Both the position numbers and the translations under genes were made by a program. 64,000 nt of DNA from a virus (taxonomy: Duplodnaviria > Caudoviricetes): positions 9,392 through 73,391 of the IMG/VR virus record IMGVR_UViG_3300020047_016550, one strand, 5' to 3'. The notes below the pieces were generated by a model, which was not told the DNA's origin, did not search any database, and was given only the letters and a program-made list of their open reading frames with translations. Below, in pieces: positions 31,907 to 48,883 of the stretch (position 1 is the first letter of the stretch; every line of letters begins with the position of its first letter).

Positions 31907-34900
31907 TTATTTTTTTGATTCTTTTTCTTTTTTAAGTTCTTCGGCCCGAGCTTTTTTCTTGTCAAATGCTTCAAGAAATTCAAGATATTCTTCCTGATCA
32001 AGCATTTTCCGTGCCTTTGCTTTGGAAAGACTTTTGTAAAAAGTTTCTTTGTTGTAGTCATATTCCCCGAATATGGGGAAAAGTGTTTTCGTGTATATGT
32101 TTTCATATCCGGCCAACGCCGACAATGAACGGATTATCCTGGGCATTCCGGCCGAATGAAACTTCCCGTCTTTTTGGTATTCCGCGAACCATTCACCTTT
32201 TTCCCAGTCATAAATATCTTTGGCTGGCTTTCTGAAATCTTCAAGTACCGACATGGGAGCAATATCAAAAACGGAAGTAACCGTTCCCACGGGATTTGTT
32301 ATCGGAGCGTTCTGAACCATTATTGAATGGATATACGGCTTGATTGTTTTTGCGATTGCCACGTCTTTTGCCGAAAAAACTTCATCTTCATCATCATCAT
32401 CGTCCGGAAGCATGGACTGAACCATCATGTACATGGAAATCAGCATTGCGGAAACAACCATGTGTGAAGCAAATGACCTGGTACGTTCACGCTGGAATAC
32501 CAGAACTTTATCTTTTAATTTACGGTATTCCTTCATTTCTGAAGCCGTTTTTCTTTTTTTATTCCGAAGTTCCCAAAAACGCTCCTGTTCACTTTCTGTT
32601 GCCACAACTGTTTTGTCGGCCCATACCGATTCACGGAAACTCTTTTTCTCTTCAAAAATATCCCGATAAATCCCGGCCATCCCTCCCGCGAATGGAGCCC
32701 TGAATATTCCCTGTTTGTAACGGTATCCGTTAACCACACGTAAATCACCGAACCAGTTTGTCCATACATCCGGCCCCCACCATTTCATTGACAGCATAAT
32801 GCGTACCATCACCATTTTTTTACCGGCGCGCTGTCCGGCTGTTCCGTAATCTCCGATCGCATCATTTATCTTATCCATGTACATTTTAAGCTGTTCAATC
32901 GAAGGAGCTTTATCATTAAGTGCGTTACCTTCGTTATCAAGGGCATTCCATTCTTCTTTCGAAAGTTTTCCGGCAAGCGCCATTGCTTTAAACGCATATT
33001 CTCCGACAGTCCACCCGAACATGGCCATTTTTGAAATAATACCGGCTTTGTCCGAAGTTTCGTAATTCATGGTACCGGAATAATTCTGTTCACCCAGTTT
33101 GGCCATTATTGAATCTATTTTTCCACGGTTTCTTTTTACCGCGTCCATGGACCGGCTTAATTCTTCGGCAGATAATCCGGCCTGTATGCCAAACTCACGG
33201 TTAAGCCATGTCTGTACCTGTTTTTTTTTCATGCCGGCAACCCTTGACATTCCGGTAGCGGTTTCAGCAACCGAACCGTCAACCATTAAAGAAAGTATTC
33301 CTCCAAAAAAGTTAACTGTAGCTCCTTTAAAATTAAACCACATTTTTGCCCGGAAAAAAAGACCTAACGTTTCCTGCATAATTGTCTGGCCCATTTTTTC
33401 AGTAAAGGTTTGTCCTTTTTTTACCTCTGGAGAACTTCCGGTAATGCTTTCTTTTCCCAAAACGTTTGCATCAACGTAGTTCCTGAAAAAAGAAGCAAGG
33501 TTGGTCATGTCTTTAGTTTCTCCGTATAATGTCGCTATGGTACCAAAAAATGCGTTTTCTTCATATTCTGAACGGGTAATCACGTCTTCCATGAATTCAA
33601 TCATTGATTCATACAAATCAACTTTCACTTTTACACCTTTGGGAACTTTGTCATAATCAAAACGGCTTCCCAGCTGAAAATTTTCCTTCAGTGTAAAGCG
33701 CTGCTTTGAACGGTCAAGATTATACATTTCTATTTTTCCGTTATGCACCCTTATGCTTTTTGCTCCTTTTTGGTCAAACGGGAAATCACGTTTTACGGAA
33801 TGGGTAAGCTTGGCCATCTTTAATGCCGTAAGCAGATCGATAACCGTTTTTGTTCCAAACTTTGCATCTATCGGTCTTCCGCGTAAAAGTGCCATGGCTT
33901 CCTCATAAGTTTTTTCTTCCGAATTACCGCCGGTTCCGTCTTTAACGGTTTCCATGCTGTCAGGTAAGGGGAAAAGGTTATCCGAAAGCAGAACGGTTTC
34001 ATTTCCCATCAAAGAATTAACCGATCTTGTATTGTAAACCGCTTCGGTAAAACTCTTTGTTTCTTTGAATATTTCCCAGAAGCCTTTAAATTTTACCGGT
34101 ATGAACGTCTTTTTTTGGCCCGGTATGTATCGGGCATATTTGGGATTATTGTAAAAAGCTTTTACGGTCAGATAAAAATCTTTTGCGGATCCGGCCGGGA
34201 TTTTAGCTTCAGGCTTTAAAACCGGTCTTCCGTTCTTGTTTATTTCGTAAATTTTTGAATAAAATGATTCTTTGGCTTTTTCCCATTTGGATTTAAACAA
34301 CGGACTGTTTTTGGCTATCATCAGTGAAGCTTTTCCGAACAGTAATTCCATTTCTTCTTCAACTCCTTTTTGAAAAACCATTCCCAGGTTGTCTTTCCAT
34401 TTGTTTATTTCATCAATGGCTTTAAGCTCGTTATGGAGTATTTTATTTGCTAAAAAAGCAGCAGCCCCGTTATTTAGATAATTAACGTCGGAAAGTTTTT
34501 TGAAATACTTGTCAAGCTGGTTCATATCTTCATTTCCGACATGGCCGTGGAAATTCTTTTTGGCACCTTCCTCAATTGCTTTTTCAATGATTTTTGTTTC
34601 AAAAGCATTAATCATCTGGGTAAAACGGTCAGTGTTTGCCCAGGCATGAAGATTCATCGTTTTAAAGATATTCAGGTATTCTTCCAGTTCCTCATAAGTA
34701 AGGTCATCGGGAGTCTGGCCGTTATCGCGCATTTCTTTAAAAAGTGCGTTTACCGTTTTTAGCTCGCTTACATAGTTGTCATACTTGATTTTTATTGCCC
34801 GTAAACGGAGCCTTAGTTCAGCAATACGCAAATTGATTTTTTTGTGCTCATGCATCGGAGCCGTATCAAGCTCACTTTTTAATTTTTTGATTTCTTCCTT

Positions 34901-36574
34901 AATGGGATTTACTCCGCGCATGAAAGTTTTTTTCGGGCCTTCCATTCCTTCGCCCGTAATTTCGGCGAATTCATTAAAAGACATCGGACTTAAATCCATT
35001 TCATCAACCGCTTTTACTTCAGCGTTCGCTTCTGCCCGTTTAAATTCTTTGATTATTTCAACCGTTTCATCGTAGAGCTCGTTTTCACCGGTAAAATCAA
35101 CTTCCATTTCCGGAATTACTTTTTGGGCAAATCCGGTTCCGTCGTCAGTAATAAGAAAAGGTTTTATGTACATTCCTTCTATTGTTACCGGCATCCCCAT
35201 TGCACTAAGTATTTTTTTGTAGATACTCAGCTGCATTCCGTGTTTTTCAAACTTGCTTGCTTTTTCGACATTGTTGAATTTACCTTTTTTCGTGTAAGTG
35301 GGATCAAGTTCTCCTTCAGTATCAATGATTGAAGTTTTTGAAAACTTGAAATCAAAAATTTTAACGGCAACACCACGGCCTTTTTTCTTTACCGCAATAA
35401 GGTCAACCCTCGAAACTATCTGCTCATTTACGTCAACCACACGCATTTCAGGTAAAAGAGTATATCCTTCGTTAACCAGATCCGAAACAATATTTTTCAT
35501 TTCGTCAAATATGGTTTTTCCGGCTTCGCGGCTTATTCCGGTAACGGCACTCATGTTCCATATTGAGTCAAAGTCCGTTTTTCCGGACATTACATCTTCA
35601 ATATTTTTTACAAGCTCTTCAATTATTTTATGGCCGTCAGTTCCCGCTTTCGTATTTTTTTCGGTCAGTTTTTCATTATCAAACTGGTCCGAGCCTTCAA
35701 AACTTGTGGAAGGGTTTACGGCCAGAATGTCGGAAGGGCTTTTTGTATGCACTTTTTTGCCGTTGGGCATGGTAATCACATACATTGAATTGGTTTTGTC
35801 GTATTCAAGCGTGGACGAAGACAATTCAATTTTATTTAAGAAATCGGCAACTTCCGCAGAAGCCGATAACGGCATGTATTTTATGACAGAATTTGAGCCC
35901 AGCGGCAATGCAGCTTTCATTTTTGCATTTTCCCACATCCGGGAAGAAAGCATCCTGGCCACGTCTTTATGGTTTGCAATTCCTATGGCATTTTTTACCG
36001 AAGCCCAGAAATCTTTCATCAGGTCAAGAAACTTTTCAAGCTTCGTTCCTTCAAAGTCAAGTTTTGCACGGTCCGATCCGGCAAGCTGTAAAGCGATTAC
36101 CGCACCTTCTTCAGCTCCCAGGGGATGATCTTCCATAAAATCTTTCAGCGCTTTTTTGGAAGGATGGTTTTCGGGAAGATAATCCCAGTAAAGGTGTGCA
36201 TATTCATGCATGAAAACATTCTGGACCGGAGCCGTTTCGTCTATGTAAACGGCATTGCCCAAAGTTGCACCTATTCTGTTTACATCAACCTGACGACCGG
36301 GGAAATGACGGTCTGCAAATTCCTGAAATTTTTCAGGATCATTAAAGATTTCCACTCCTTTAAAAAGGCCTCCCAGTGTTTCGCGGACATGGTTTTCAAA
36401 AGCCATGTTCTTTGAATCTTTTTCTATTCCGTCATGAACGGCAATCCATGAAGCAGCTTCCGCAATGGAAGGAATATCATCGTTAAACGCTTTAAAAATC
36501 TGCATGGCCCGTACTTTTCCGTACTGCATTTCAAGCATTTTCCATTCAGGTAAATTTGTGTTAGGACATCCCAT
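31907..36574 (-). CDS. Giant virion cargo protein with zincin-like and PD-(D/E)xK domains (1555 aa)
   Basis: MGCPN..PEW start typical of crAss-like cargo; HEYAH at 36194-36208; RVDL...IFDFK...QLSIY. Confidence 0.8.
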   Translation of the reverse strand: MGCPNTNLPEWKMLEMQYGKVRAMQIFKAFNDDIPSIAEAASWIAVHDGIEKDSKNMAFENHVRETLGGLFKGVEIFNDPEKFQEFADRHFPGRQVDVNRIGATLGNAVYIDETAPVQNVFMHEYAHLYWDYLPENHPSKKALKDFMEDHPLGAEEGAVIALQLAGSDRAKLDFEGTKLEKFLDLMKDFWASVKNAIGIANHKDVARMLSSRMWENAKMKAALPLGSNSVIKYMPLSASAEVADFLNKIELSSSTLEYDKTNSMYVITMPNGKKVHTKSPSDILAVNPSTSFEGSDQFDNEKLTEKNTKAGTDGHKIIEELVKNIEDVMSGKTDFDSIWNMSAVTGISREAGKTIFDEMKNIVSDLVNEGYTLLPEMRVVDVNEQIVSRVDLIAVKKKGRGVAVKIFDFKFSKTSIIDTEGELDPTYTKKGKFNNVEKASKFEKHGMQLSIYKKILSAMGMPVTIEGMYIKPFLITDDGTGFAQKVIPEMEVDFTGENELYDETVEIIKEFKRAEANAEVKAVDEMDLSPMSFNEFAEITGEGMEGPKKTFMRGVNPIKEEIKKLKSELDTAPMHEHKKINLRIAELRLRLRAIKIKYDNYVSELKTVNALFKEMRDNGQTPDDLTYEELEEYLNIFKTMNLHAWANTDRFTQMINAFETKIIEKAIEEGAKKNFHGHVGNEDMNQLDKYFKKLSDVNYLNNGAAAFLANKILHNELKAIDEINKWKDNLGMVFQKGVEEEMELLFGKASLMIAKNSPLFKSKWEKAKESFYSKIYEINKNGRPVLKPEAKIPAGSAKDFYLTVKAFYNNPKYARYIPGQKKTFIPVKFKGFWEIFKETKSFTEAVYNTRSVNSLMGNETVLLSDNLFPLPDSMETVKDGTGGNSEEKTYEEAMALLRGRPIDAKFGTKTVIDLLTALKMAKLTHSVKRDFPFDQKGAKSIRVHNGKIEMYNLDRSKQRFTLKENFQLGSRFDYDKVPKGVKVKVDLYESMIEFMEDVITRSEYEENAFFGTIATLYGETKDMTNLASFFRNYVDANVLGKESITGSSPEVKKGQTFTEKMGQTIMQETLGLFFRAKMWFNFKGATVNFFGGILSLMVDGSVAETATGMSRVAGMKKKQVQTWLNREFGIQAGLSAEELSRSMDAVKRNRGKIDSIMAKLGEQNYSGTMNYETSDKAGIISKMAMFGWTVGEYAFKAMALAGKLSKEEWNALDNEGNALNDKAPSIEQLKMYMDKINDAIGDYGTAGQRAGKKMVMVRIMLSMKWWGPDVWTNWFGDLRVVNGYRYKQGIFRAPFAGGMAGIYRDIFEEKKSFRESVWADKTVVATESEQERFWELRNKKRKTASEMKEYRKLKDKVLVFQRERTRSFASHMVVSAMLISMYMMVQSMLPDDDDDEDEVFSAKDVAIAKTIKPYIHSIMVQNAPITNPVGTVTSVFDIAPMSVLEDFRKPAKDIYDWEKGEWFAEYQKDGKFHSAGMPRIIRSLSALAGYENIYTKTLFPIFGEYDYNKETFYKSLSKAKARKMLDQEEYLEFLEAFDKKKARAEELKKEKESKK

Positions 36575-36575: not shown

Positions 36576-39500
36576 TTACATACAATCCATTAAATTTTTT
36601 AACTCCTGGCCGTATTGTCCGGCCGTATCAAATTTAAGCGAAGATAATTTGATTTGCTCAGCTGCCGTTTTAATTTTTTCGGGCCCGTATTCTTTGGCCA
36701 GCTCATTTTCCATCAAAACAGAATTTTCTTCATTAAAATCAAGCGAATTGAATGATTCGGGTATGCTGTAATTTTTTTTACTATTTGACTGATTTAAAGT
36801 TTCTTCATAAACATCTTTTATTGCCTGCATGGCTTTTTCTGCTTTTTCATCACCCACATACTCTTTTCTTGGTTGCCATTTTCCTTCAATCTGAACATTA
36901 TAGTTTTCAATATCTCTACTGCCTATTCCTGCAAAGTTTTTAGTTAGTGTTGGTGTTTCTGTAGGTTCAAATATTCCTATATCTGTTTTATTAACTACTT
37001 TATATTCAATTTGCCAAGCTTCATTTAATCTTGGTTTAACTTTAGAATTAAAATAATCTACACTCCACCCTTCTAATTTACTCCATTGTTCAGCATTTTT
37101 ACCACTACCTACTAATTTATGTAAGGGTTTTGTAACTTCGACTAATACTTTTTCTCCATTCTTACCTTCCCATTCTATAATATCTCCTTCTTTTAATTTT
37201 TTCCAATAGTCTATATGTCCATCAGATTCATATCTTGTAGTTGCAGTTCTTTCACCTTGCTTAATAGCTTCTATTGTAGAAATTGATTTAACATCTGACC
37301 TTTTATTATCATTATAATTAAAAGTCATTTTACCTTTAGCTGAAATAGGTTTTTCTTTTGTTTTTTGTTCAAAGCTATACCACTGTTCAGTGTTTATATC
37401 CCAAACATAAACAGGTTTATTTAACTTAATACCTAATTGCACAGCAGTATTTGTACCTCCTTTAACACCATTATCATCACTATTTAATTTAGCAATAGCA
37501 TAGACAGCATCAGCATTATAAACTTGGTAGTAGTTTCTGATCTGAAGATTCTTCTTTATTGTATCTGTATACTTAGTAAGATACTCTGGTCCAAGAAGAT
37601 CATTTATTTCAGCTTCAGCTTTATCAAGTTGTTCTTGAGTTAGAATAGTAGCACCTTGAATTTGTTTTGAAATTAATCCTGTTTTAGTAGTATTAAGCTC
37701 TGTAACTAATCCAAAGTTATCGAACAGCTCTTGTTGTAACCACGTTGCAAATCTTGTTGGTAATTTTGCTTTCTCGGTAGCAAATCCTGGAGGAAATACT
37801 AGTTTGGAATATCCACTATTGTTTATCCTGGATATCAATTCAGTATTTAATCTTGTAAACTCTTTAAAATCTGAATCTGTATCTGACCATTGACCACCAG
37901 CAACCTGAGTTTTCTTGGTGATTATAGCTAATGCATTTGGATTCCTGTTTCCATTTCTATCTGTCCTGATAATAGCTTGTGTCTGAGATACATTCTTATC
38001 AGTATCAAGCATTTCAGCATTCTCAGTAAAAATGAATCCTGTATCAGGATTATTTGGAGCAGTATCTTTTGTGTAATTAACTTTGGTAATCTGAACCCTA
38101 TCTCTTAGTTGCTTAGAAAGATTTGCATTTCCGGCATCTTTATAGTGTTTATGATTAGTAACACCATATTCTCTACCAATTAAATCCCAATAAGTATCTC
38201 CCCCATAAGATTCTCCTGAATGGTTTACAAAATCTTTCATTAAATTCGTTTTCTCTTTATTAAAATCAAATTCTTTGATTGTTTTCGCTTCACCACGTAT
38301 CGCCAGCGGCTTAGAATTTGCTTTGTCCAGATAAAATACTGTCCACTCTTCACTTTCCGCATTTTCTTTGGCCCTCACAAAACGGCTCTGGCCTTCTTTA
38401 AGCTTTTTGAATGCGGAATCTCCTTTATAGTCACTTTCGTCAACTTTGCTTATCATATCAGCCATTCCGGGATTATAACGTATCACGTTTGCTATCCACG
38501 TAAGTTCTTTTTTATAGCTCTCATTTTTTTTGTAGGCATTGACAACCGCTTCTTTTCTTTTACCGAATTCAATCCGCGTCTGATCATCAATTATGGAAAA
38601 ATAACCTTTTGCTTGTACGGACTCCGACATTCCGTTGTTTAAAACCTGGTTTGCCAGTAAAATCATTTTTTCTTCAAAAGGAAGCCGGCCGAATGCTTCT
38701 CTTACTGAATTTTCATAGTTTATGTCACCCACCCGTTTTTTATAATCGGAACTCAATGTTACCGAATCGGAAGTTTTTCCGATATCAATGCTTAATGCTT
38801 CTTTTAAAATTCCTGACTGTTTTTGCACAATTGCTATGGCCTGCTTTTGTACAGTTTCCGCATCAAAGTCAATAACGGCTGATTTGTCTATGATGTCGTA
38901 AATGGTTTCATAAGTTGATTTGATAAATCTTGAAGGCATGGCTTGAAGTATATTCCATCCGTTAAAAGAAAAAAACGGATCTATGGCCATTGCATTTCTT
39001 TGCATTAATGAATAACCCATTTTGTTTCTTTCAAGAATCGGACTTGTTTCGAATCCCGGCCAGTCAAATTTTTTCTGGAGTTTTACCATGGACTCCCGTA
39101 TTTTCAAAAGCTCCCAGGGCTGAAACGTAAAACTTTTGGTCATTTTGATAATCGGATTTAATACAAATTGGATATCCGATGAAACATTCATAAGTTTTGA
39201 AAGATGAACCAAAGCCATTAAACGGTCAATCGGTTTATCTGAATTAACATCGTATTGAGTAAGCTCAAACTTGTAAACATTGAAATTTCCGTCATAATTG
39301 TATGAGTCATTAAGCTCTTTGTTTTTTCTTAATAAATCGTCAATTTCACCGTCAATGATATCTTTCAATTCTTCATTTGAAAGCATGCTTTGTCTTTTGT
39401 TGAGCTTTTCATAGATTTCAGTAAAGAACGGAGATTGCATATAACGGATGACTTCTTCGTTTGAACTTCCCGACATTCTCATTACCGAAGCCAGGGTAAT

Positions 39501-42500
39501 GGTATCCGGTCCCATACGCAGTTCATCCATGCCTTGTTCTTTTGCATTGTCTGTCGCGTGGTTAAGTTTGTTTGCCAGCGCAAAAATAACGTCGTTGAGT
39601 TTTTTTGAAATTACTCCGTTTACTTTTTCCAGGTTTAAAAAGTTTCCGGAAGTAGGAGTGACTTTTCCTTTTAAATATTTTAAAACAGGAAAATTGAATT
39701 TGTGTTTTATGCCCTGTGAAAGAATATAAGTAAAAGCGGCATTGTCGTTTGCCTGAATGGATATTCCCGTTTTACCGTTGGAATTTGCATCCCATGAAGC
39801 AGTCATATCAACAAGACTTAACTGGCTTGGTTTTTCTTTGTTTGACGCACCCCGTTCGTTTTGTGCAATCTCAATATCTTTTTGCGTGTCAATGGGAGTA
39901 GTAAGATATTCGTGGTTTCTGGGTTTTCCGTTTAAAAGCGTTTCGTATTCGGATTTCATTGCTCCGATTATTTTATTGCTTAACGCTTTTTTCTTTTTGT
40001 CTTCAAGCCGGCGTTTTTCTTTTTTCATTTCAACGGCCCGTTCATCTGAAACTTTAACGGATTCAGAATTTAAAAAACGGTCAATTTTATCTAAAATATC
40101 CTGATCTCCTTGTGTAAACGTAACAAGTTTTCCTTCTTTTGTACGGTATTCACCCATTACATGCCGCTGGTCTCCGTCATTGTCGGAACCGGACATTTTT
40201 TGTGTTCCGGGATCCACTATCATCATGTTTTCCATGTCGCCCGTCGTAAATCCGGCAATTTCAACAAGTGAAACCGAATGAAGCGCGGAAGTCGGGATTC
40301 TTTCAATCAATACCTTGTCTCCTTCAACACGAAATTTTCCGTTTTCTTCAAAAATAGGATTTGTTCGGAATTCTCCCCTGTAGTTTTGGGCTTCTTCCAA
40401 CGTAGAGAATGTTTCACCGGCAATGTATCTGTTTGCAAATTCAGCGGGCATGATTACTTCAGGAAAAAGCCAGTGTTCTTTTCCTTCAATGTCTTTTACC
40501 GCTTTTTGGTTTTTACCTCCGTAAGTACGGAGTTTTATTCCCAATGCAGGAACTTCGGTAAGAATGTTTTTGTTTACTTTGGTATCAATCGCTTTTTTCT
40601 TTATTTCGGAACCTATGAGGGTATAAATTGTTTTTAATGCATCACGGTCAAACATCCAGTTATATCCCGGAATTTTCATTTTCTCGATAACCGGATTATA
40701 ATCACCTTCTTTTTGTCTGTTGATTACACGGTCTTTTGCATTTTTTCCTTCTTTTAAAAGTTCTTCCTGTAACCGTTCGGTTTCAATACGTGCAATTTCA
40801 TTTAATGAAGATACAATTTCCGGGCCGCTGTCCGTAGGTAAAAAATATGATATGCCCTGTGTGGGCATTTTACCTTCGGTTTCTTCCGTTGACTGTCTTT
40901 GGTCTTGCTGGACATAATAAAATTCATTATTCAGAATTTCTGTTTTAACCGATTCCGGATTTGAATCATTGTCAATTAAAAATGAAGCATCAGCCCATCC
41001 GTTTTTTTTCTTTAATGCTTCGAAAAATGCATTTTTTTGTTTTTCAATACGTTTTTCATTCAGTTTTCCTTCTTTGCTTCTTTTGGCTCCCGTCGTAAAT
41101 GAAATCTGATCAATTTCTTCGGCATCCATTAAATCAAGAATGTTGAGAAGAGTGTAATCAGGCATACCTCTTTCTTCATTAAAATTTGCAGCAAATTCAG
41201 CAAATTCACGGCTTATAAGAACGGTATTTGTTTTAATATAGGTATGGGCACCCGTAGCTAAATCCATTTCATTATAAATCGCTTTTATTGATCCGCCGAA
41301 ATCAAAAGTGTTTCCAAACGATTTGTTTATTTTTGAATTCTGTACTGAATTGATAATCGTGATTCCGTCAGCCAGCTCCGCTTTCATCGGTAAACCCAGG
41401 CTTTCAAAAAATGAAGAGTAAATCTCCGAATCAATTTCAAAATCCGGAATAATAAGCGCTTTCTGTGTTTTACCCATTCCCCCTTCTATTTCCGTATCGG
41501 GATTTACCCCGGAAGCCCTCATTTCGCGTTTTACTTTGTCGATAAAACCTTTGGAGTAATTTTCAGGATTTCCGTAATAAAAATGATCCGTAAATATTTT
41601 GTTCACGGCAAAAGAATAAGCAAACTGTAATGCAAGGTCATTGGCGGTAATTCCGTTTACCGTAAGTTTATTTAAACCTATTTTGCTGCTTACCGTGTTG
41701 AGCATTTTCAAATAAGTATATGAATCCTCCAAAAGTTTTTCTTCGGTGATTTCATTGGCTATTTTATTTATTTCGGGATTTTTGCTTTTCTGTAAATCCG
41801 AAAGTATTTTTTTAGATTCTTCTATTCCGTATTTTTTAACCGGAACATAAATCTGTTTTCCCTTATCGGACATTACCTCGACAAGCTGGCCCGTTTTTCC
41901 TTTTCCGAATAAGTTCTGGAAATCATTTCCAAAAAACATTATTAAATGATTCAACATGATGTCGGAACCTTTCTGCTGGTCCGCTTTCATGTTTCTGTTA
42001 CCCTGGATTAAAGCCCCGTCAAACAAAATCATTGTTCCTTCAGGGTTTCCGTTTTGAAGATAATCATTCCTCATTACGGTTCCGTTTTCCAGCTCATAAT
42101 CAAAACGCCTGTTTTCTTTTATTTCATCGGTTTTGATTTTGTGGGTAAGCTTGGATATCGTTGAATTGTATTCTCCGGTAGTTTTTAAGTCTTTGTTTAC
42201 GTCCTGGTATGAAGAAGCCAGCTGGTCCGGTTTCGGATCTAAATTCAGTCTCGCAATGTTGTCAATCTGTGGACTGATTACTTTTCCCGTAGTTGCATTT
42301 ACCGTTTGTTTTGTCAGAGAATCACGGACTTTTTTTGCCGACAATACGGGCTCGTCTATTTTAATTTTGTCATATATGTTGTAGTAAATATTAGTTCTGG
42401 GCATTATAAACGGAGCGTCAATTGCATATTGCATGAGATAAAAATGTGCAAGATTTTCAAATCCTTTGTAAGTAGGCTTTTTGCCTGTTTCAATTGACAT

Positions 42501-43841
42501 TGAGGATTTATTGTATTCTTTCATCATTTCCGGCGGTATCCCGGTTAACGTATGGGCAAACATAAGCTCCATGTTTTCGTATTCAAGAAGCTGTCTGTAT
42601 ATGACTTCGGTTCTTTTGTCTTTTTGGGCTTCATCCAAAAACTGAAGCGCAATTTCTTTTGCTTTTTCAGGATTTGAAGCTACGGCCGAAACGTCTTTCA
42701 AAAAGTTTTTGTAAGTCATTTCAACTTCCTGGTTCCCATAATTTATTTTCACTTTACGGGCCATGAACTGGGCAGGAAAACTTTGTTTTGCATAACTGTT
42801 CAGTTCACCGATAATCCATTTTCTTTTTTTCTCAAAATCAGAATAGGCATCTTTCATTTTTTTTACCGCTTCTTTTTTGTTTTCACGGTTTTCAAGTATG
42901 TCACTAATGGTTGAGCCCTGAATGAATTTGGTAAGGTTTGATGCTATTACGAATTTATTTTCGAGTGCATTGCTCAATCCTATCTGATAAGTGCCGTAAC
43001 TGTTTTCAATTACCCGGACGGCCGGAACCATAATCATTGATCTTACATATTGACGAAGGGAAACTAAAAGTTTGTTTGATGCATTTTCTGAGATTTCTTT
43101 TACCCAGGTGCCCAATTTTTCATTGTAGCTGTCCGCGGCCATAAAATATTCTTTTACGGATTTCTGCGTCATCTGAACGTTTTGCACATAATCAGAAATC
43201 ATCCTTAAAAGATAATCCGGAGTAACGTTCATTTTTTTGGCAACCGGGCTCCAAAGCTTATGCATTTTTTTGGTATCACCGTCAAAAGTTTTTTCATCAA
43301 AAGCCTGCGCCACACTTTCTTCCATCGCTTCTTCCAAAGCTTCGTTGTTGGTTTCAAATATTTCGGCAATGGCTTTCATTTTTTCTTTACGGGACAAAAG
43401 ACTTTCATTTAACGAAGCTTCCGTAAAACTTTCAAATCTTGACGAAATCATTGAATGGATCGCGTTAAAGTATTCAATGATTTCGTTATTGTTGAGTGAA
43501 TTGGGATTCACTTTTTTATCCATGATTAATTTTCTGGATATTTTTTCGGCCATACGGTAATTGTCGCTTTCATCCAGAAGTTGTGCTTCGGACATAATCA
43601 TGCTTTCATTGGCATCAATGATGTTTTTTACTTTTTCAGAAAGCTGTGTACGGTTTTTTTTAATCGCGCTGTTTATTTCATTAAAAAGCTGGCTTTTGGT
43701 AACAACTCCTTCGTTGATGAAATTTGCAATATTTTCTGATGCATAAAGCTCGTTTAGGATATCTTCATAAGAAGTAAAGCCTTCCTTTACGGAAAGCTTT
43801 ATAAATTCTCTTATCTCATCTATCGGAACGCATTTTTTCAT
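36576..43841 (-). CDS. Virion-packaged two-barrel RNA polymerase polyprotein
   Basis: RIPT....S then GSDNDGD catalytic loop (40170-40184); size and position as in crAss-like phages; start MKKC overlaps upstream stop (ATGA). Confidence 0.85.
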   Translation of the reverse strand: MKKCVPIDEIREFIKLSVKEGFTSYEDILNELYASENIANFINEGVVTKSQLFNEINSAIKKNRTQLSEKVKNIIDANESMIMSEAQLLDESDNYRMAEKISRKLIMDKKVNPNSLNNNEIIEYFNAIHSMISSRFESFTEASLNESLLSRKEKMKAIAEIFETNNEALEEAMEESVAQAFDEKTFDGDTKKMHKLWSPVAKKMNVTPDYLLRMISDYVQNVQMTQKSVKEYFMAADSYNEKLGTWVKEISENASNKLLVSLRQYVRSMIMVPAVRVIENSYGTYQIGLSNALENKFVIASNLTKFIQGSTISDILENRENKKEAVKKMKDAYSDFEKKRKWIIGELNSYAKQSFPAQFMARKVKINYGNQEVEMTYKNFLKDVSAVASNPEKAKEIALQFLDEAQKDKRTEVIYRQLLEYENMELMFAHTLTGIPPEMMKEYNKSSMSIETGKKPTYKGFENLAHFYLMQYAIDAPFIMPRTNIYYNIYDKIKIDEPVLSAKKVRDSLTKQTVNATTGKVISPQIDNIARLNLDPKPDQLASSYQDVNKDLKTTGEYNSTISKLTHKIKTDEIKENRRFDYELENGTVMRNDYLQNGNPEGTMILFDGALIQGNRNMKADQQKGSDIMLNHLIMFFGNDFQNLFGKGKTGQLVEVMSDKGKQIYVPVKKYGIEESKKILSDLQKSKNPEINKIANEITEEKLLEDSYTYLKMLNTVSSKIGLNKLTVNGITANDLALQFAYSFAVNKIFTDHFYYGNPENYSKGFIDKVKREMRASGVNPDTEIEGGMGKTQKALIIPDFEIDSEIYSSFFESLGLPMKAELADGITIINSVQNSKINKSFGNTFDFGGSIKAIYNEMDLATGAHTYIKTNTVLISREFAEFAANFNEERGMPDYTLLNILDLMDAEEIDQISFTTGAKRSKEGKLNEKRIEKQKNAFFEALKKKNGWADASFLIDNDSNPESVKTEILNNEFYYVQQDQRQSTEETEGKMPTQGISYFLPTDSGPEIVSSLNEIARIETERLQEELLKEGKNAKDRVINRQKEGDYNPVIEKMKIPGYNWMFDRDALKTIYTLIGSEIKKKAIDTKVNKNILTEVPALGIKLRTYGGKNQKAVKDIEGKEHWLFPEVIMPAEFANRYIAGETFSTLEEAQNYRGEFRTNPIFEENGKFRVEGDKVLIERIPTSALHSVSLVEIAGFTTGDMENMMIVDPGTQKMSGSDNDGDQRHVMGEYRTKEGKLVTFTQGDQDILDKIDRFLNSESVKVSDERAVEMKKEKRRLEDKKKKALSNKIIGAMKSEYETLLNGKPRNHEYLTTPIDTQKDIEIAQNERGASNKEKPSQLSLVDMTASWDANSNGKTGISIQANDNAAFTYILSQGIKHKFNFPVLKYLKGKVTPTSGNFLNLEKVNGVISKKLNDVIFALANKLNHATDNAKEQGMDELRMGPDTITLASVMRMSGSSNEEVIRYMQSPFFTEIYEKLNKRQSMLSNEELKDIIDGEIDDLLRKNKELNDSYNYDGNFNVYKFELTQYDVNSDKPIDRLMALVHLSKLMNVSSDIQFVLNPIIKMTKSFTFQPWELLKIRESMVKLQKKFDWPGFETSPILERNKMGYSLMQRNAMAIDPFFSFNGWNILQAMPSRFIKSTYETIYDIIDKSAVIDFDAETVQKQAIAIVQKQSGILKEALSIDIGKTSDSVTLSSDYKKRVGDINYENSVREAFGRLPFEEKMILLANQVLNNGMSESVQAKGYFSIIDDQTRIEFGKRKEAVVNAYKKNESYKKELTWIANVIRYNPGMADMISKVDESDYKGDSAFKKLKEGQSRFVRAKENAESEEWTVFYLDKANSKPLAIRGEAKTIKEFDFNKEKTNLMKDFVNHSGESYGGDTYWDLIGREYGVTNHKHYKDAGNANLSKQLRDRVQITKVNYTKDTAPNNPDTGFIFTENAEMLDTDKNVSQTQAIIRTDRNGNRNPNALAIITKKTQVAGGQWSDTDSDFKEFTRLNTELISRINNSGYSKLVFPPGFATEKAKLPTRFATWLQQELFDNFGLVTELNTTKTGLISKQIQGATILTQEQLDKAEAEINDLLGPEYLTKYTDTIKKNLQIRNYYQVYNADAVYAIAKLNSDDNGVKGGTNTAVQLGIKLNKPVYVWDINTEQWYSFEQKTKEKPISAKGKMTFNYNDNKRSDVKSISTIEAIKQGERTATTRYESDGHIDYWKKLKEGDIIEWEGKNGEKVLVEVTKPLHKLVGSGKNAEQWSKLEGWSVDYFNSKVKPRLNEAWQIEYKVVNKTDIGIFEPTETPTLTKNFAGIGSRDIENYNVQIEGKWQPRKEYVGDEKAEKAMQAIKDVYEETLNQSNSKKNYSIPESFNSLDFNEENSVLMENELAKEYGPEKIKTAAEQIKLSSLKFDTAGQYGQELKNLMDCM

Positions 43842-46800
43842 AATGAACACGGATTTCTTTTGTTGTCAATATTAGCAATTATTTCCTGTTTTTTCCTGGC
43901 TATTTCCTTTTTTTCGGTTTTGGCCTGTTCAATCATTCTTTCAAAACGTATGTCAATTTTTTCTTCTTTGGTAAGTGTAGGATCCGTTTCGGTTTCTATC
44001 ACAGAACCCGTTTGCGGATTTTTGGTTTTGGTCTGGAGTCTTCCGTTTTCGGTAATCTTTCTTGAACCTAAACCTTCAGAAATATTGCTTACCAATTTTC
44101 CGGCCGGATCACGTACTTCAATTTTATCTCCATAAGGTGTGCCGTCTTTTCTTTTTGCTTCGTCAAAACGGTTCCATTCGTTTTTTGGAACATAGTTCAA
44201 AGTCACCGGTAATGATTCTCCGGGTTTTAAGTCTTTGTATTTTTTTGGCAGTTTATAGGAAACCATTTGTAGTTCACGGCCCGAATTGTCAACTACCGCA
44301 ATCCGCGTTTCTCCGTTTTTTTGTGCCAGGGCCTTTACTTCCATTTTATACTGGCGTTTTCCTGTTTTCTGAAAAACATCGGCCAGCTTTTTTACGGTAG
44401 TTTTAAAACGGTTTGCATGGCTTAGTGCGTTATGTTTTTCAATGTCCGTTTTTCCTTTTATTTTTTGTTTTGATTCAGGTAATGATTCTTTTTTTCCAAG
44501 ATTTTGGTAATAATCATTTACGGCATCAATATCTAATCCGAATTTTTCAGAAAAATTTATTCTTAAGTCTTCAATTTCTTTTGTTAAATCAGTTCTGTTA
44601 TTTTCTTCTTCAATATTTTTTTTCGTAATTCCTGAAGGAAATTCATTTACTGTTTCAATAATTAAATCAATGACATCTTGTTCATCATATCCTGAATGGC
44701 CCTCACTTCTTAATTCTTCCAATAGGTAATCCGAAACAAAAGTATCTATTTTGACTCCTTTTTCTGAAAACCATTTTTTTTCAGATACATCGGTTACGTT
44801 TTCTTTTATTTCTTTTAATGGTTTAAATTTAGTTTTGAGGATATTTGACATAATTATTGATTTCAAAGATCTTGAACCGTTTTTTTGTGCATTTTTTGAA
44901 ATTTCATAATTATAATCTTCAATAAATTCAATGACTTGTTTTTTTGTTTTTGGAGTTAAAACATTGTTCCACCATACATTTATCATGTTTGGTATTTTAG
45001 AAGCTTTTTTTGAATGGCTTATGGTATGTTTTGATGATTTTTTTTCTGTGCCTTGATTATCCGTGAATATAATCTTTTCATTTTCAAAATCTATTTGAGC
45101 TTTTGTTGAAGAAGTTAATTTGTATCCTTGATTTTGTTTTGATTTAGATGATTTTGTATTTACAGTTTCCGTATTTGTTTTTTGAGCCGGTGTGCTTGTT
45201 TTGGTAGATGGTGTACTAACGGCTTCGGCAGCTGGCAATTTCGTCCCAATTTCTTTTTTCCCACTTAATATTTCAACAACATCATTTTTAAATTTAGATA
45301 ATCCATCTCTGTTTATTACATTACTATCAGTTTGCTTGTAATCAGCCGATTTTAATTCAAAAATAGCCTGTTCCATTTCAGGAGTAATATTATCCGTAAG
45401 TTCAAATATTACAGAAGCACCTCCTTCTCTCCCGAAAACATCACTTCCAGACATCGCAACTTGAATGTATTGTTTTTTATTTTTACTTTCAAAAACTCGA
45501 TATTTTGCACCCGTAGTTCTATAATGTTTTTTATCCGTAGTCTTTTCACCTTCAAAATTAACGTAAGTAAAGTCCGCAGATGTACGAGGGTCGGTATCAA
45601 ACGTCCTCATTTCATTTTCACCCCCTATTGTGTTTTCAATTTGTGTAAGTCCAGATAATGTAGAGTTCGATATTACTGCATTTTCATTAATTATAGAACC
45701 TTGATTTTGTTTTTCAACCGTTGCCTCACCCACTACCGTTTCAGCAGGCGAAACAACAGGGGATATTTCACCCCCGTTGTCAACCGTAGTTTGCTCAACT
45801 ACGGGGGGCACAACTTCAGGTGAAACAGTTTCAGCCGAAGATTCTTTTTTCTGTTTTTTGGATACGGGAACAACCATATATTCACCCGGTGAAATTAAAG
45901 TTCCGTTACTCCATACTTCATTTTTTATTACCCGCGTTACAGAACCTTCCGGCAAATCAGAAGTTGCATCAGGTATAATTTTTGATTCTTTTGAAATTTC
46001 ATTTGAACTTTTATATGCCGGTATTTCATACTCAGTACCGGCCAGGTCTTCAATTTCCGCTTCATATATTTCTTTTTCCGCACCCTCAAGCTCAGAAGGG
46101 TTGACATTGGCCAGCCATTTAACTTTGCTTTCCATGTTCACTTTTTCATTTATTGCCATGGCCAAAGCATCCTGGGAATTTTTCACGGTTTCTTTTTCTT
46201 TGTCGGCTAAAACAAAAGGATCGGTCTCAGGAATTTCTGCTTCCGTTTTTTCAGTTTCGGGCTCTGCTTTTTTTGCGGTTACTTTTAATGAAGGTTTTTT
46301 ATTTGCGTTTTTGTCCCTGTTTGCGATTTCATTCCCGGCAATGGCCAGAAGTTCTTTTTGATGTTTTAAATGCTCCTGGGCCCCATGTAAACCGTTTCCG
46401 CTTATGGTTTCTTCACCGTTTACGATATCCCATTTAAACATATCATAGTCAGGAAGATTTTTCTCGCTTTCGGTTTTAATCAAAAGTTCTAAATCGGCAA
46501 TATTTTTTTTGGTTGTCTCAATAAGGTTTTCAACTTTGTCAATGGTAACTTCCGGCATTGTTTTTTTTACCATTGCTCTTTCTTTCTGCAAATGTCCGGA
46601 TATGGCCACACTTTCAATTTCCATCAGTTTATCCCGTTCTTCCTGATTCATGGCCATTCTTTTTTCACGGGTTTCTTCAACGGCCTGTTGGGTGCCTGTT
46701 TTTTTCCCGTCAGGATCTGATGAACCCATGGCCATACCCATTAAAAAAGTTCCGGCCAGAAAGAATGTGGCATCACTTACATTTCCAAACTGCTGTTTAA

Positions 46801-48883
46801 TCTGGCCCATAAATTCTTTACCGTTATCCGTTTCGGAATACATCTGGTAAAGAGTCTGCATTGTTTCTTCCGCTGTTTCACCGGTGCCCTGTCCAATTTT
46901 TCGGCCTACATAATCATTGACTATTTTCAATGTCGCATTTTCGGAATTTCCTCCAAAAAACTTTACTATTCCGGGAACAAATTTTCCAAGTTTTGTTCTC
47001 TTTGAAAGTGAATCAATAAACTGGGAACCCATTTCACCTGCAACACCGGAACCAAAATTAAGTTCTCCCGCCTGGCGCTCAAAAATTAATCCACCGGTCT
47101 GGTATTCAATTCCCGCTTTTAATATTTTGGCCATTCTTGTATCACTTTCCAATACCCATTTTGCCGCAGTTCCCAATTTCGGAGTTTTGGAAGCAATTGT
47201 TAATCCGGTTTTTGTCAATCCGGCTCCGGTAACCGCCGGCCCGATTATTCCCGTTGTCACGCCTATCATTTCGGCAACGGATTCCGGAGTCCATGATTCA
47301 TAAGGTTTCGAACGTTCGTCAAGCATTTCTTTTACATCCGGGCTGGCAGATGAATAATCGGCTCCGGTAAAAATAAAAGCATCCTGTAAACGGCGCGCGC
47401 GTTCCTGATCCGTTGCTGTTACAATTTTAGAACGGGAACCGACTGATAATTGTAAAGGATCTCCTCCTACGGCAGTATTCCATGCTGCTTTTAAAAATAT
47501 TGCTTCGGGTGATTCAGTTTTCCCGATAATCGGATTTCTGTTGGCCAAAGCCACTGGTGCAAGGTCTTGGATTATTTCAATGTTTTCCTGAAGCTTCATC
47601 CATTTTTCGGTTCCTACCAATTGCCTTAACTGATTTCGGCCATGAAGATATAATTCCGTTAACGGATTTATATCTGAATCTTTTTCATATCCGTTCCAGG
47701 AATTAACCCTGGGATCAATTAATTTTTGAATGTCGGCTTCCGGATATCCAAATTCCTGAAGTATGTCTTTTGACTCCTGATATTTTGACAACATGTATCC
47801 GGTTAACTTTTGACGGTCTGAAAGATTTTCAAAAGGACTGGCCGATAATTTGTATTCTTTTACTTTGTCAGAAGCATATTTTTCGGGATTTAAGAAAAAC
47901 TCTTTCCGGCCTTTAAATTCACTTATTTTTTTATCAATTTCTTTCAGTTTTAATTCTTTTTCTGTTTCGCTGTAATAAGGATGATTAAAGACTTTATCTC
48001 TTTCTGAAGTAAGACTTTGAATTTTTAAATCAATTTCGGAATTGCTTTTTTCAGAAAGGTCTTTGTAATTTTTAAGCTGCGTCGACATTATTTTTTTTGC
48101 CGATTCTATTTTAAGTTTTTCTTCAGAAGTAAGTGAACGTTGTTCTTTTTTTGCTTTTTCTTCTAAAGACAAAGCTTCCCGATAAAAAGGCATGGCCGCT
48201 TCTACTTTTTTAATCGCGCCGAATTCTATTTTTTCGGTTGGGGAAAGAGCATATTCGGCAATATTGTTTACTGTTGTTATTGCATGATCTTTTAATGATG
48301 TTTTTTTGTAAAAAGCATCTTTGGCAAAACCGACGATTCCCATTTTGTAATCATCCATTTCTTCCGGCAACTTAGCTTTTAATGGAGTAACCGTTGGCTT
48401 GTATTCTTGGTAATACGGTTTATTTTTTAAAACTTCTTCTTCTTTTTCTTGTGATTCACGTCTTTCTTTCGCCTGGGCCAATGCCTGTTTGTACATGTCG
48501 TCACGCCATTTAATCATTTCTTCTTCACTGGGTAAGTCAAGAAGGCTTTGATTATTTTTTACGGCAAATTCTATGGCATTTTTTGGATTATCAATTTTGG
48601 CCGTAGTAACGGTTTTTGGCATTACTTTTTTAGAAAACGTTTCAAAGTCCGGAACTTTTGCTTTTCCCGTTTTTGAAATTTCATCATAAAGACCTTTTAC
48701 GAATTCCGGATTTGACAAGTTTTCCTTAAACAGTTTTTCATCAACCTGGGGAAATTTTGACGAAAGATTACGCTTTGAAAAATCAAGTATTTTACCTACA
48801 TAATCTTCATCGTAATCTGACTTATAAGGACCGGGAAACGCCGGCTTATTTACCGGCGGATCTGTTACGTTTTGATTTTCCAT
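43838..48883 (-). CDS. Giant virion cargo/ejection protein (1681 aa)
   Basis: Gly-rich hydrophobic segments mid-protein; directly upstream of vRNAP. Confidence 0.75.
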   Translation of the reverse strand: MENQNVTDPPVNKPAFPGPYKSDYDEDYVGKILDFSKRNLSSKFPQVDEKLFKENLSNPEFVKGLYDEISKTGKAKVPDFETFSKKVMPKTVTTAKIDNPKNAIEFAVKNNQSLLDLPSEEEMIKWRDDMYKQALAQAKERRESQEKEEEVLKNKPYYQEYKPTVTPLKAKLPEEMDDYKMGIVGFAKDAFYKKTSLKDHAITTVNNIAEYALSPTEKIEFGAIKKVEAAMPFYREALSLEEKAKKEQRSLTSEEKLKIESAKKIMSTQLKNYKDLSEKSNSEIDLKIQSLTSERDKVFNHPYYSETEKELKLKEIDKKISEFKGRKEFFLNPEKYASDKVKEYKLSASPFENLSDRQKLTGYMLSKYQESKDILQEFGYPEADIQKLIDPRVNSWNGYEKDSDINPLTELYLHGRNQLRQLVGTEKWMKLQENIEIIQDLAPVALANRNPIIGKTESPEAIFLKAAWNTAVGGDPLQLSVGSRSKIVTATDQERARRLQDAFIFTGADYSSASPDVKEMLDERSKPYESWTPESVAEMIGVTTGIIGPAVTGAGLTKTGLTIASKTPKLGTAAKWVLESDTRMAKILKAGIEYQTGGLIFERQAGELNFGSGVAGEMGSQFIDSLSKRTKLGKFVPGIVKFFGGNSENATLKIVNDYVGRKIGQGTGETAEETMQTLYQMYSETDNGKEFMGQIKQQFGNVSDATFFLAGTFLMGMAMGSSDPDGKKTGTQQAVEETREKRMAMNQEERDKLMEIESVAISGHLQKERAMVKKTMPEVTIDKVENLIETTKKNIADLELLIKTESEKNLPDYDMFKWDIVNGEETISGNGLHGAQEHLKHQKELLAIAGNEIANRDKNANKKPSLKVTAKKAEPETEKTEAEIPETDPFVLADKEKETVKNSQDALAMAINEKVNMESKVKWLANVNPSELEGAEKEIYEAEIEDLAGTEYEIPAYKSSNEISKESKIIPDATSDLPEGSVTRVIKNEVWSNGTLISPGEYMVVPVSKKQKKESSAETVSPEVVPPVVEQTTVDNGGEISPVVSPAETVVGEATVEKQNQGSIINENAVISNSTLSGLTQIENTIGGENEMRTFDTDPRTSADFTYVNFEGEKTTDKKHYRTTGAKYRVFESKNKKQYIQVAMSGSDVFGREGGASVIFELTDNITPEMEQAIFELKSADYKQTDSNVINRDGLSKFKNDVVEILSGKKEIGTKLPAAEAVSTPSTKTSTPAQKTNTETVNTKSSKSKQNQGYKLTSSTKAQIDFENEKIIFTDNQGTEKKSSKHTISHSKKASKIPNMINVWWNNVLTPKTKKQVIEFIEDYNYEISKNAQKNGSRSLKSIIMSNILKTKFKPLKEIKENVTDVSEKKWFSEKGVKIDTFVSDYLLEELRSEGHSGYDEQDVIDLIIETVNEFPSGITKKNIEEENNRTDLTKEIEDLRINFSEKFGLDIDAVNDYYQNLGKKESLPESKQKIKGKTDIEKHNALSHANRFKTTVKKLADVFQKTGKRQYKMEVKALAQKNGETRIAVVDNSGRELQMVSYKLPKKYKDLKPGESLPVTLNYVPKNEWNRFDEAKRKDGTPYGDKIEVRDPAGKLVSNISEGLGSRKITENGRLQTKTKNPQTGSVIETETDPTLTKEEKIDIRFERMIEQAKTEKKEIARKKQEIIANIDNKRNPCSL

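What the first reader, a model, noticed from the sequence alone, without database searches (positions are those of the whole stretch)
31907..48883. Head-to-tail cysteine pairing of the three giant ejected proteins
Reading the translations, the 1681-aa protein has one Cys (...RNPCSL-end), the vRNAP two (MKKC... and ...MDCM-end) and the 1555-aa protein one (MGCP...). That is four Cys in ~5,660 aa, each at a terminus facing the next gene product, with the outer ends Cys-free. The 532- and 642-aa cargo proteins have none. The genes are translationally coupled (ATGA overlap at 43838-43841; 1-nt gap at 36575). Hypothesis: disulfide or metal links make an ordered chain that is threaded through the tail, stays joined across the oxidising periplasm and is released in the reducing cytoplasm.
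Basis: partly seen in the sequence, partly recalled or inferred. Interest (0 to 1): 0.88.

Follow-up and report, generated by a model that had tools for sequence, protein, structure and literature searches.

The report
Terminal cysteines chain crassvirus cargo proteins
Three giant proteins that this crAss-like phage probably packs and injects, its RNA polymerase among them, have no cysteines except one at each end facing the next protein; relatives keep these cysteines where the genes are separate and lack them where the genes are fused, which suggests an undescribed end-to-end tether.

Summary
The 1681-aa, 2421-aa and 1555-aa proteins hold four Cys in 5,657 residues, at positions -3 | 4 and -2 | 3. 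The outer ends and both smaller cargo proteins have none. The background predicts about 74 Cys.

The block is the RNA-polymerase cargo block of Crassvirales. It follows capsid, ring and muzzle genes, the middle protein is a divergent two-barrel RNAP, and the last carries HExxH.

The pattern is order-wide. phi14:2 and crAss001 show it, in crAss001 even with the first gene on the opposite strand. I surveyed 56 polymerase clusters.
- The polymerase has an N-terminal Cys in 15/15 clusters with a separate upstream giant, and in 2/33 without an adjacent one. Both exceptions have that gene elsewhere.
- It has a C-terminal Cys in 35/35 clusters with a separate downstream giant.
- Fully fused 4,700-5,200-aa versions have no Cys at all.
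- The Cys of the last protein is the only invariant column of a ~40-aa module that is almost always N-terminal.

The best reading is an end-to-end tether standing in for a peptide bond, most likely a disulfide. Its chemistry, timing and release are untested. I found no paper describing it. This scan noted the same rule on other genomes.

The parts
52416..56795 (-). Muzzle protein (1459 aa, 10 Cys). It marks the start of the cargo gene block.
   Evidence: Pfam PF25731 crAss_MUZ, E 3.6e-60. Cys count.
50491..52419 (-). Cargo protein, 642 aa, no Cys (position of crAss001 gp45/C1).
   Evidence: Cys count. It lies directly downstream of the muzzle gene, as in crAss001. Upstream cargo ORFs of relatives are also Cys-free.
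48886..50484 (-). Cargo protein, 532 aa, no Cys (position of crAss001 gp46/C2).
43838..48883 (-). U: first giant protein (1681 aa; position of crAss001 gp47 and phi14:2 g067). Its only Cys is residue 1679, third from the C-terminus (codon 43847-43849).
   Evidence: The same one-Cys-at-the-C-end pattern occurs in g067 (last residue) and gp47 (-3). It also occurs in 14/15 separate upstream giants of relatives.
36576..43841 (-). V: divergent crAss-type virion RNA polymerase (2421 aa). Its only Cys are residue 4 (43830-43832) and residue 2420 (36582-36584). The metal-binding motif GSDNDGD lies at residues 1218-1224 (about 40170-40190).
   Evidence: An HMM of four crAss vRNAP cores matches residues 900-1512 collinearly, with domain i-E 2e-5 and 3.5e-5. 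The motif aligns with GSDFDxD of phi14:2 g066 and crAss001 gp50.
36762..38279 (-). C-terminal cassette of V (residues about 1855-2360). It is shared at 55-76% identity, in shuffled order, with giant proteins of otherwise unrelated phages.
31907..36574 (-). D: last giant protein (1555 aa; position of crAss001 gp49 and phi14:2 g065). Its only Cys is residue 3 (36566-36568). HEYAH lies at residues 123-127 (36194-36208).
   Evidence: A zincin-like domain in gp65 orthologues is described in the Drobysheva preprint.
36443..36574 (-). N-terminal connector module of D (residues 1-44, MGCPNTNLPEWKML...). The Cys is its only invariant column.
   Evidence: Alignments A2 and A3. The HMM finds the module only at N-termini among the loci. 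A profile search of 1.84 billion representatives gave 1075 hits; 145 of the best 149 have a Cys in the first 10 residues.

Best explanation
The three genes are the RNA-polymerase-associated cargo block of a divergent crassvirus. U is like gp47/g067, V is the virion RNA polymerase like gp50/g066, and D is the HExxH protein like gp49/g065. As in other ejected phage proteins, cysteine is purged from them. Exactly one Cys is kept within a few residues of each terminus that faces the next protein.

I propose that the C-terminal Cys of U pairs with the N-terminal Cys of V, and the C-terminal Cys of V pairs with the N-terminal Cys of D, most likely as disulfides formed in the virion. The three separately made proteins would then behave as one linear thread of about 5,660 residues, with stubs of only 1-4 residues. 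That thread would be the equivalent of the single fused giant protein that many relatives encode.

Shown here: the Cys pattern, its conservation, its restriction to facing ends, its presence with gene fission and absence with fusion, and a dedicated N-terminal module with an invariant Cys.

Inferred only: that the two Cys bond to each other, that the bond is a disulfide, that the thread is ejected as one chain, and that it is uncoupled in the cytoplasm.
For: 1. Four Cys in 5,657 aa against about 74 expected, all at junction-facing ends.

2. Cultured crassviruses show the same pattern. In phi14:2, g067 has Cys at its last residue, g066 at 3 and -2, and g065 at 3. In crAss001, gp47 has Cys at -3, gp50 at 5 and -9 plus one internal, and gp49 at 5. 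In crAss001 gp47 lies on the opposite strand, so gene-junction DNA does not explain the pattern.

3. The survey covered 56 clusters sharing at most 50% identity.
- V has an N-terminal Cys in 15/15 clusters with a separate adjacent U and in 2/33 without one. In both exceptions U lies elsewhere and carries its C-terminal Cys.
- V has a C-terminal Cys in 35/35 clusters with a separate D and in 3/18 without one. In one exception D lies 1.5 kb away; in the other two the contig ends.
- D has an N-terminal Cys in 35/35 clusters.
- Outer ends carry a Cys in only 1/12 (U N-terminus) and 1/29 (D C-terminus). That single D is followed by a fourth chain member.

4. Fusions were verified by homology and lack the Cys. 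The separate D of L026 aligns to residues 3996-5183 of the Cys-free 5220-aa L022 protein (E 7e-68). The D of L027 aligns to L036 residues 3701-4918 (E 4e-168). The U of L079 aligns to L062 residues 130-611 (E 8e-59).

5. On a polymerase tree the N-side architecture changes at least 7 times and the C-side at least 9 times. Independent pairs go 5 the same way and 0 opposite on the N side, and 4 to 0 on the C side.

6. A four-member chain in L006 includes a 300-aa link whose only Cys are at 3 and -2.

7. The Cys in the N-terminal module of D is invariant. The module is N-terminal in about 145 of 149 best representatives.

8. His is rare near the Cys, 6/64 on the N side and 3/62 on the C side, which argues against a Cys2His2 metal site.

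9. crAss001 virions do contain structural disulfides (PMC10172136), so disulfides form in crassvirus particles.
Against: - There is no biochemical evidence that these Cys are bonded at all.
- Virions assemble in a reducing cytoplasm and many hosts live without oxygen. This genome encodes no thioredoxin, glutaredoxin or Erv-type oxidase.
- The C-terminal side has only a weak acidic-then-basic pattern and no clear module.
- A few lineages place the U Cys further in, at -15 in L011 and -32 in L061.
- One locus does not fit simply. In L025 a 5419-aa protein has its only Cys at -398, followed by a Cys-free 584-aa protein and then a protein with Cys4.
- The window's own U and D have almost no detectable sequence relatives. 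Their orthology therefore rests on position, length, HExxH and the N-terminal module.
- The tree tests are individually below significance (p 0.06 and 0.13) because there are few independent pairs.
Confidence: 0.6

Rival explanations
1. The facing cysteines join the ends through a bridging metal ion, for example a two-thiolate Cu(I) or Zn site completed by carboxylates or water, and not through a disulfide.
For: The comparative evidence is the same as for the tether. Acidic residues are enriched at positions -5 to -9 before the C-terminal Cys. A metal bridge needs no oxidant, which suits a reducing cytoplasm and anoxic habitats. No oxidoreductase is encoded.
Against: Each end supplies only one thiol, and His is rare nearby (6/64 and 3/62). 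No conserved second ligand column appears in the N-terminal module. A two-ligand site would be weak for holding a chain under ejection forces.
Confidence: 0.12
2. The terminal cysteines do not pair with each other. Each new chain end made by gene fission is fastened to a third partner such as a portal, capsid-interior or tail protein, forms a homodimer, or carries another thiol modification.
For: The data show that Cys tracks chain breaks, not who pairs with whom. The muzzle and other virion proteins have Cys available. crAss001 uses many inter-protein disulfides in its tail.
Against: The outer ends of the block almost never carry a Cys (1/12 and 1/29), although they are chain ends too. Cys always appear as one on each side of a break. 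A 300-aa middle link has exactly two, one at each end. Fused forms drop both together.
Confidence: 0.12
3. The cysteines act as nucleophiles in a ligation or splicing-like reaction that turns the separate proteins into a true polyprotein, or into thioester-linked intermediates.
For: Cys near an N-terminus and next to a C-terminus recalls extein junction residues. Fused and split forms look interchangeable.
Against: There is no room for intein halves, because the Cys sits 0-3 residues from the C-end and 2-5 from the N-end. No Hint or intein domain was found in the three proteins. The N-terminal Cys is not residue 1.
Confidence: 0.04
4. The pattern has no function. Terminal Cys are merely tolerated in Cys-purged proteins, or are a by-product of the DNA at coupled gene junctions.
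For: In this window the Cys codons lie within about 12 nt of the overlapping start and stop signals. Cys suppression in ejected proteins is already known (PMC11445570).
Against: The pattern is kept when the genes are not adjacent (crAss001; L038 and L032). It is absent from outer termini and invariant in a module found in 1075 representatives. It tracks fusion and fission. N4-like ejected proteins have no terminal Cys at all.
Confidence: 0.03

Closest known systems
RNA-polymerase-associated cargo block of cultured crassviruses: phi14:2 g067-g066-g065 (g066 is the virion RNAP, Drobysheva et al. 2021) and crAss001 gp47-gp50-gp49 (Bayfield et al. 2023)
   Same: The position after the muzzle and two smaller cargo genes is the same. 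There are three giant proteins of similar size, a two-barrel RNAP with a DxDxD motif in the middle, and HExxH in the last. The terminal-Cys pattern is identical.
   Different: The sequences are extremely diverged. There is no BLAST or phmmer match to g066 or to PDB entries, and the catalytic motif is DNDGD in place of DFDxD. The papers I read on these phages do not mention the terminal cysteines.
Fused 'polyprotein' versions of the same block in other crAss-like phages (noted by Yutin 2018, as cited in the Drobysheva preprint)
   Same: The domain order U-V-D and the total length of about 4,700-5,400 aa are the same. Homology of the parts was verified.
   Different: A peptide bond replaces the chain break, and the facing Cys pair and the N-terminal module are missing. 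The literature proposes cleavage of the fusion. Here the split form is proposed to be re-joined.
Cysteine-free ejection proteins of Schitoviridae (N4 gp50, DEV gp71-73; PMC11445570)
   Same: These are giant virion-packed RNA polymerases ejected through the envelope, with strong suppression of internal Cys. That suppression is explained by passage through the oxidising periplasm.
   Different: The N4-type proteins have essentially no Cys, terminal ones included, and the polymerase is a single chain. An N4-like locus in my own hits (L010) has a 2707-aa protein with zero Cys. The RNAP fold family also differs (T7-like against two-barrel).
Interchain disulfide of AB toxins such as diphtheria and clostridial neurotoxins (from my own knowledge, not tested here)
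   Same: Two chains are held by one disulfide while an unfolded chain crosses a narrow conduit, and are then released by cytosolic reduction. This is the same logic as the proposed mechanism.
   Different: There is no homology. The toxin chains come from one nicked precursor and are not joined strictly end to end. This is an analogy only.

Membership tests
Crassvirales structural and cargo module | Crassvirus-type major capsid, tail ring and muzzle proteins upstream on the same strand | tested here: met
   PF23898 Crass_capsid (E 2.4e-17), PF25702 Ring_2, PF24228 Ring_1 and PF25731 muzzle (E 3.6e-60).
crAss-type virion RNA polymerase (phi14:2 gp66 family) | Two-barrel RNAP core with a DFDxD-type metal-binding motif inside a giant virion protein | tested here: met
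   The core HMM matches residues 900-1512 collinearly (domain i-E about 2e-5, full E 1e-3 in a small database). GSDNDGD aligns to GSDFDxD. This is weak by plain sequence search: there is no PDB or BLAST hit.
crAss-type virion RNA polymerase (phi14:2 gp66 family) | Packaged in the virion and active on early genes | not testable with these tools
   This needs virion proteomics and transcription assays.
gp65/gp49-like RNAP-associated protein | Zincin-like HExxH domain in the protein encoded after the polymerase | tested here: inconclusive
   HEYAH is present at 123-127, but no Pfam or PHROG protease family matched. BLAST finds only the N-terminal module.
Terminal-Cys chain rule (as defined in this report) | One Cys within about 12-15 residues of every terminus facing another chain member, none at outer ends, and almost no internal Cys | tested here: met
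   Window pattern: -3 | 4, -2 | 3, with no internal Cys. Relatives.
N4-like Cys-free ejection proteins | Complete absence of Cys and a T7-like vRNAP with N4 domains | tested here: not met
   Four terminal Cys are present and no N4 vRNAP Pfam domain was found. Compare the N4-like locus L010.
Split intein / protein trans-splicing | N-intein of about 100 aa starting with Cys at the end of the first protein, and C-intein of about 35 aa ending before a Cys in the second | tested here: not met
   The Cys lies 0-3 residues from the C-end and 2-5 from the N-end. No Hint domain was found.
Bacterial lipoprotein | Signal peptide with a lipobox Cys at about position 15-25 | tested here: not met
   The Cys is at positions 3-4 with no preceding hydrophobic stretch.

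The most novel reading that the evidence does not exclude
Crassviruses build a 'protein train'. Separately translated giant cargo proteins are coupled head to tail by single terminal cysteines, guided by distinct connector modules. Examples are a CPNxNSPEW-type and a C-[KQE]-Y-x-[YF]-type N-terminal module, never seen twice in one block here. The modules would fix the order U-V-D. The couplings would carry the train through the tail as one thread and be cut by cytoplasmic reduction, which would also switch the polymerase on. A redox-cleavable coupling would thus be the evolutionary alternative to a polyprotein that needs a protease.
Probability: 0.35. Interest if true: 0.9.

Novelty: new variant of a known kind. 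Interest (0 to 1): 0.8.

Why it matters
How crassviruses store about 0.7 MDa of RNA-polymerase-associated protein per set, and deliver it in order through a narrow tail, is an open question. Recent structural papers raise it explicitly (PMC10172136; PMC13434306).

A conserved rule that puts a Cys pair wherever the giant polypeptide is broken gives a concrete, cheap test in two cultured phages, phi14:2 and crAss001. It would explain why split and fused gene layouts interchange freely. It would add a redox-controlled coupling to the known strategy of Cys-free ejection proteins.

It also gives annotators a simple signature for recognising chain members, including small links such as the 300-aa protein of L006, and for spotting wrong gene starts or broken genes.

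Tried and rejected
- Complex prediction, with the last 140 residues of V and the N-terminal module of D, was requested six times. The machine was unavailable and nothing was folded.
- Near-identity DNA search in phage records found no match.
- A word-based homologue search with D returned only itself. With V it found only proteins sharing the mobile C-terminal cassette. Those hits nevertheless revealed the general Cys pattern.
- phmmer of V against PDB sequences found nothing.
- Pfam and PHROGs give no family for U or for the N-terminal module.
- The closest relative by the cassette (L001/L041, G001) has a fused, Cys-free giant gene running over the contig end. A muzzle search in it found nothing.
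- The supplement of the crAss001 paper holds no reduced versus non-reduced peptide data.
- I looked for a phage-encoded thiol oxidoreductase and found none.
- I excluded L018 (genetic code miscalled) and L056 and L067 (polymerase gene broken into pieces) from the survey.
- The split-intein, lipobox and DNA-junction explanations were considered and rejected (see Membership tests and Rival explanations).
Full report
**What is in the window**

The window is most of a 73.4-kb virus record with direct terminal repeats. The minus strand carries a crassvirus structural module.
- Major capsid protein (PF23898).
- Tail ring proteins 2 and 1 (PF25702, PF24228).
- Muzzle protein (PF25731, E 3.6e-60).

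Downstream of the muzzle lie two mid-size genes of 642 and 532 aa, then three giant genes. I call these U (1681 aa, 43838-48883), V (2421 aa, 36576-43841) and D (1555 aa, 31907-36574). This is the layout of crAss001 gp44-gp50 and phi14:2 g071-g065.

**Checking the observation**

- U has one Cys, third from its end.
- V has two, at position 4 and second from its end.
- D has one, at position 3.
- The two smaller proteins have none.

The ATGA overlap and the 1-nt gap are as described. The other 49 genes of the window carry 1.32% Cys, so about 74 Cys are expected in the three giants. The probability of no internal Cys is about 5e-33. The chance that all four facing ends carry a Cys within 7 residues is about 6e-5.

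**Identity of the proteins**

V has no BLAST or PDB-sequence match to the phi14:2 polymerase. I built an HMM from the polymerase cores of phi14:2 g066, crAss001 gp50 and two metagenomic relatives. It matches V residues 900-1512 collinearly. GSDNDGD at 1218-1224 aligns with the catalytic GSDFDxD. V is therefore a very divergent crAss-type virion RNA polymerase.

D has HEYAH at 123-127. This fits the zincin-like domain reported for gp65 orthologues (preprint 10.1101/2020.03.07.982082).

U has no recognisable family, so its assignment rests on position and size.

**Conservation in cultured phages**

| Phage | First protein | Polymerase | Last protein |
|---|---|---|---|
| phi14:2 | g067: one Cys, the last residue | g066: Cys 3 and -2 | g065: Cys 3 |
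| crAss001 | gp47: one Cys at -3 | gp50: Cys 5 and -9, plus one internal | gp49: Cys 5 |

In crAss001 gp47 is on the opposite strand from gp50-gp49. The pattern therefore belongs to the proteins and is not a side effect of coupled gene junctions.

**Wider survey**

A homologue search with V returned 119 giant phage proteins that share only a mobile C-terminal cassette. Even so, 116 of them have a Cys within 10 residues of a terminus. Their internal Cys frequency is 0.024%, against 6.5% in the terminal 20 residues.

Fetched contexts show complete chains.
- L006: 1888 aa (Cys -2) | 4160 aa (4, -3) | 300 aa (3, -2) | 1854 aa (4).
- L007: 2327 aa (-12) | 3906 aa (3, -2) | 1173 aa (3, plus one internal).

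I then fetched 80 IMG/VR loci with an alignment of polymerase cores. I called ORFs under three genetic codes and clustered the polymerase ORFs at 50% identity, which gave 56 usable clusters.

| Test | Result |
|---|---|
| V has N-terminal Cys, separate adjacent U (at least 1000 aa) present | 15/15 |
| V has N-terminal Cys, no adjacent U | 2/33 |
| V has C-terminal Cys, separate D present | 35/35 |
| V has C-terminal Cys, no adjacent D | 3/18 |
| U has C-terminal Cys | 14/15 (the other at -32) |
| D has N-terminal Cys | 35/35 |
| U N-terminus (outer end) has Cys | 1/12 |
| D C-terminus (outer end) has Cys | 1/29 |

The exceptions mostly dissolve on inspection.
- The two N-side exceptions are the crAss001 lineage and L038. 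In L038 U lies 482 nt upstream. In both, U carries its C-terminal Cys.
- Of the three C-side exceptions, L032 has D 1.5 kb downstream with Cys5. In the other two the contig ends right after V.
- The single D with a C-terminal Cys (L052) is followed by a fourth protein with Cys4.
- Only L025 remains odd.

**The fusion test**

Many relatives encode U+V, V+D or U+V+D as one ORF. This was known. These fusions lack the corresponding Cys.
- U+V fusions have no N-terminal Cys but keep the V-D pair.
- V+D fusions keep only the U-V pair.
- Full fusions have no Cys at all: L022 (5220 aa), L030 (5005), L036 (4933), L037 (4992), L040 (4730) and L045 (4799), plus the incomplete L053 ORF of more than 6763 aa.

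BLASTP shows that they are true fusions.
- The separate D of L026 aligns to L022 residues 3996-5183 (E 7e-68).
- The D of L027 aligns to L036 residues 3701-4918 (E 4e-168).
- The U of L034 aligns to L028 residues 1324-1504.
- The U of L079 aligns to L062 residues 130-611.

On a FastTree of the polymerase core, the architecture changes at least 7 times on the N side and at least 9 times on the C side. In independent pairs the Cys state follows the architecture in 5 of 5 informative pairs on the N side and 4 of 4 on the C side, never the other way. Each test alone is under-powered (p 0.06 and 0.13).

**A connector module**

The first ~40 residues of D form a conserved module, M-x(1-4)-C-P-N-x-N-S-P-E-W-K-x-L-V-x-x-x-G. 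The Cys is its only invariant column.
- Among the loci it occurs only at N-termini: on D, or on V in one lineage.
- It is not detected inside fused proteins.
- One internal copy exists, and it lacks the Cys.
- Separate D proteins align to fused proteins only from about residue 30-60 onward.

A profile search of 1.84 billion representatives found 1075 carriers. Of the best 149, 145 have a Cys in the first 10 residues and one more is a mis-called start. Of the 57 that are 900 aa or longer, 56 have the N-terminal Cys, and their internal Cys frequency is 0.05%.

A second N-terminal type, C-[KQE]-Y-x-[YF]-x-G..., also exists. Wherever both junctions could be typed, the two N-terminal modules of one block differ. 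That would suit ordered pairing, but the sample is small.

The C-terminal side shows only a weak pattern, acidic at -5 to -9 and basic around the Cys.

**Mechanism**

A Cys pair appears wherever a peptide bond of the giant protein is missing. It sits 0-3 residues from the C-end and at positions 3-5 from the N-end. The simplest reading is that the pair replaces that bond. It would form a one-to-one covalent link that makes a near-linear thread.
- A disulfide is favoured. Each end offers a single thiol, His is rare nearby, and crAss001 virions contain structural disulfides.
- Points against are the reducing assembly compartment and the lack of a phage oxidoreductase in this genome.
- Ejection as one thread and reductive release are inference by analogy and remain untested.

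**Comparison and novelty**

Cysteine suppression in ejected proteins is published for N4-like phages, which have no Cys at all (PMC11445570). An N4-like locus among my own hits behaves that way.

I searched the held library four times and read the crAss001, phi14:2, DEV and N4 papers. None mentions terminal cysteines in crassvirus cargo. The 2026 N4 paper states that the relation of the three crassvirus proteins to the single N4 polymerase chain still needs study.

Earlier AI notes of this scan report the same rule on at least seven other genomes. I treated them as leads and re-tested the rule and the fusion test myself.

**Verdict**

The pattern is real, functional and order-wide. The end-to-end tether is well supported by comparison, while its chemistry and dynamics are open.

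Noticed in passing
window 30651-31893 (-): Two small cysteine-rich ORFs sit directly after the Cys-purged giants on the same strand. One is 184 aa with 10 Cys (starts MEGTVTVCPKCC); the other is 228 aa with 8 Cys (starts MCCGKGKKKCSC). Neither has a Pfam family, and there is only a weak PHROG 'tail protein' hit. Similar Cys-rich ORFs follow the block in L016.
   Followed up: partly
window 36762-38279 (-), V residues about 1855-2360: This cassette of four sub-domains is 55-76% identical to parts of giant proteins in otherwise unrelated phages (L006, L007, L008, and an N4-like phage L010/P0005). The sub-domain order is shuffled (a,b,c,d against a,c,d,b). One part hits PHROG 768, 'DprA-like'. It looks like recent exchange of modules between ejected giant proteins.
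   Followed up: partly
window about 40170-40184 (-): The polymerase metal-binding motif reads DNDGD, not the DFDxD said to be universal in crAss-like virion RNAPs.
   Followed up: partly
L025:1409-23582: This is the only locus that does not fit the rule simply. A 5419-aa fused protein has its single Cys 398 residues from the end. A Cys-free 584-aa protein follows, and then a protein with Cys4.
   Followed up: partly
L009:10001-24047: This relative reads TAG as Gln. A LAGLIDADG homing-endonuclease ORF lies between pieces of the polymerase region (a possible intron), and a thioredoxin gene lies about 2 kb upstream.
   Followed up: no
L010:18087-22805: In this N4-like phage the vRNAP domains (PF21867, PF21894, PF21769) are spread over many short gene calls after a Cys-free 2707-aa helicase-containing giant. 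This may reflect another genetic code, frameshifts or a broken assembly.
   Followed up: no
L011-L014, L007, L038, L049 (N-termini of V and D): A second N-terminal Cys module, M-[AS]-C-[KQE]-Y-x-[YF]-x-G-x-x-[YW], swaps places with the CPNxNSPEW module between V and D in different lineages.
   Followed up: partly
window 60707-61786 (-): A 359-aa protein between the capsid gene and the ring genes has a RecA C-terminal domain hit (PF21096, E 3.6e-6). This is unexpected inside the structural module.
   Followed up: no
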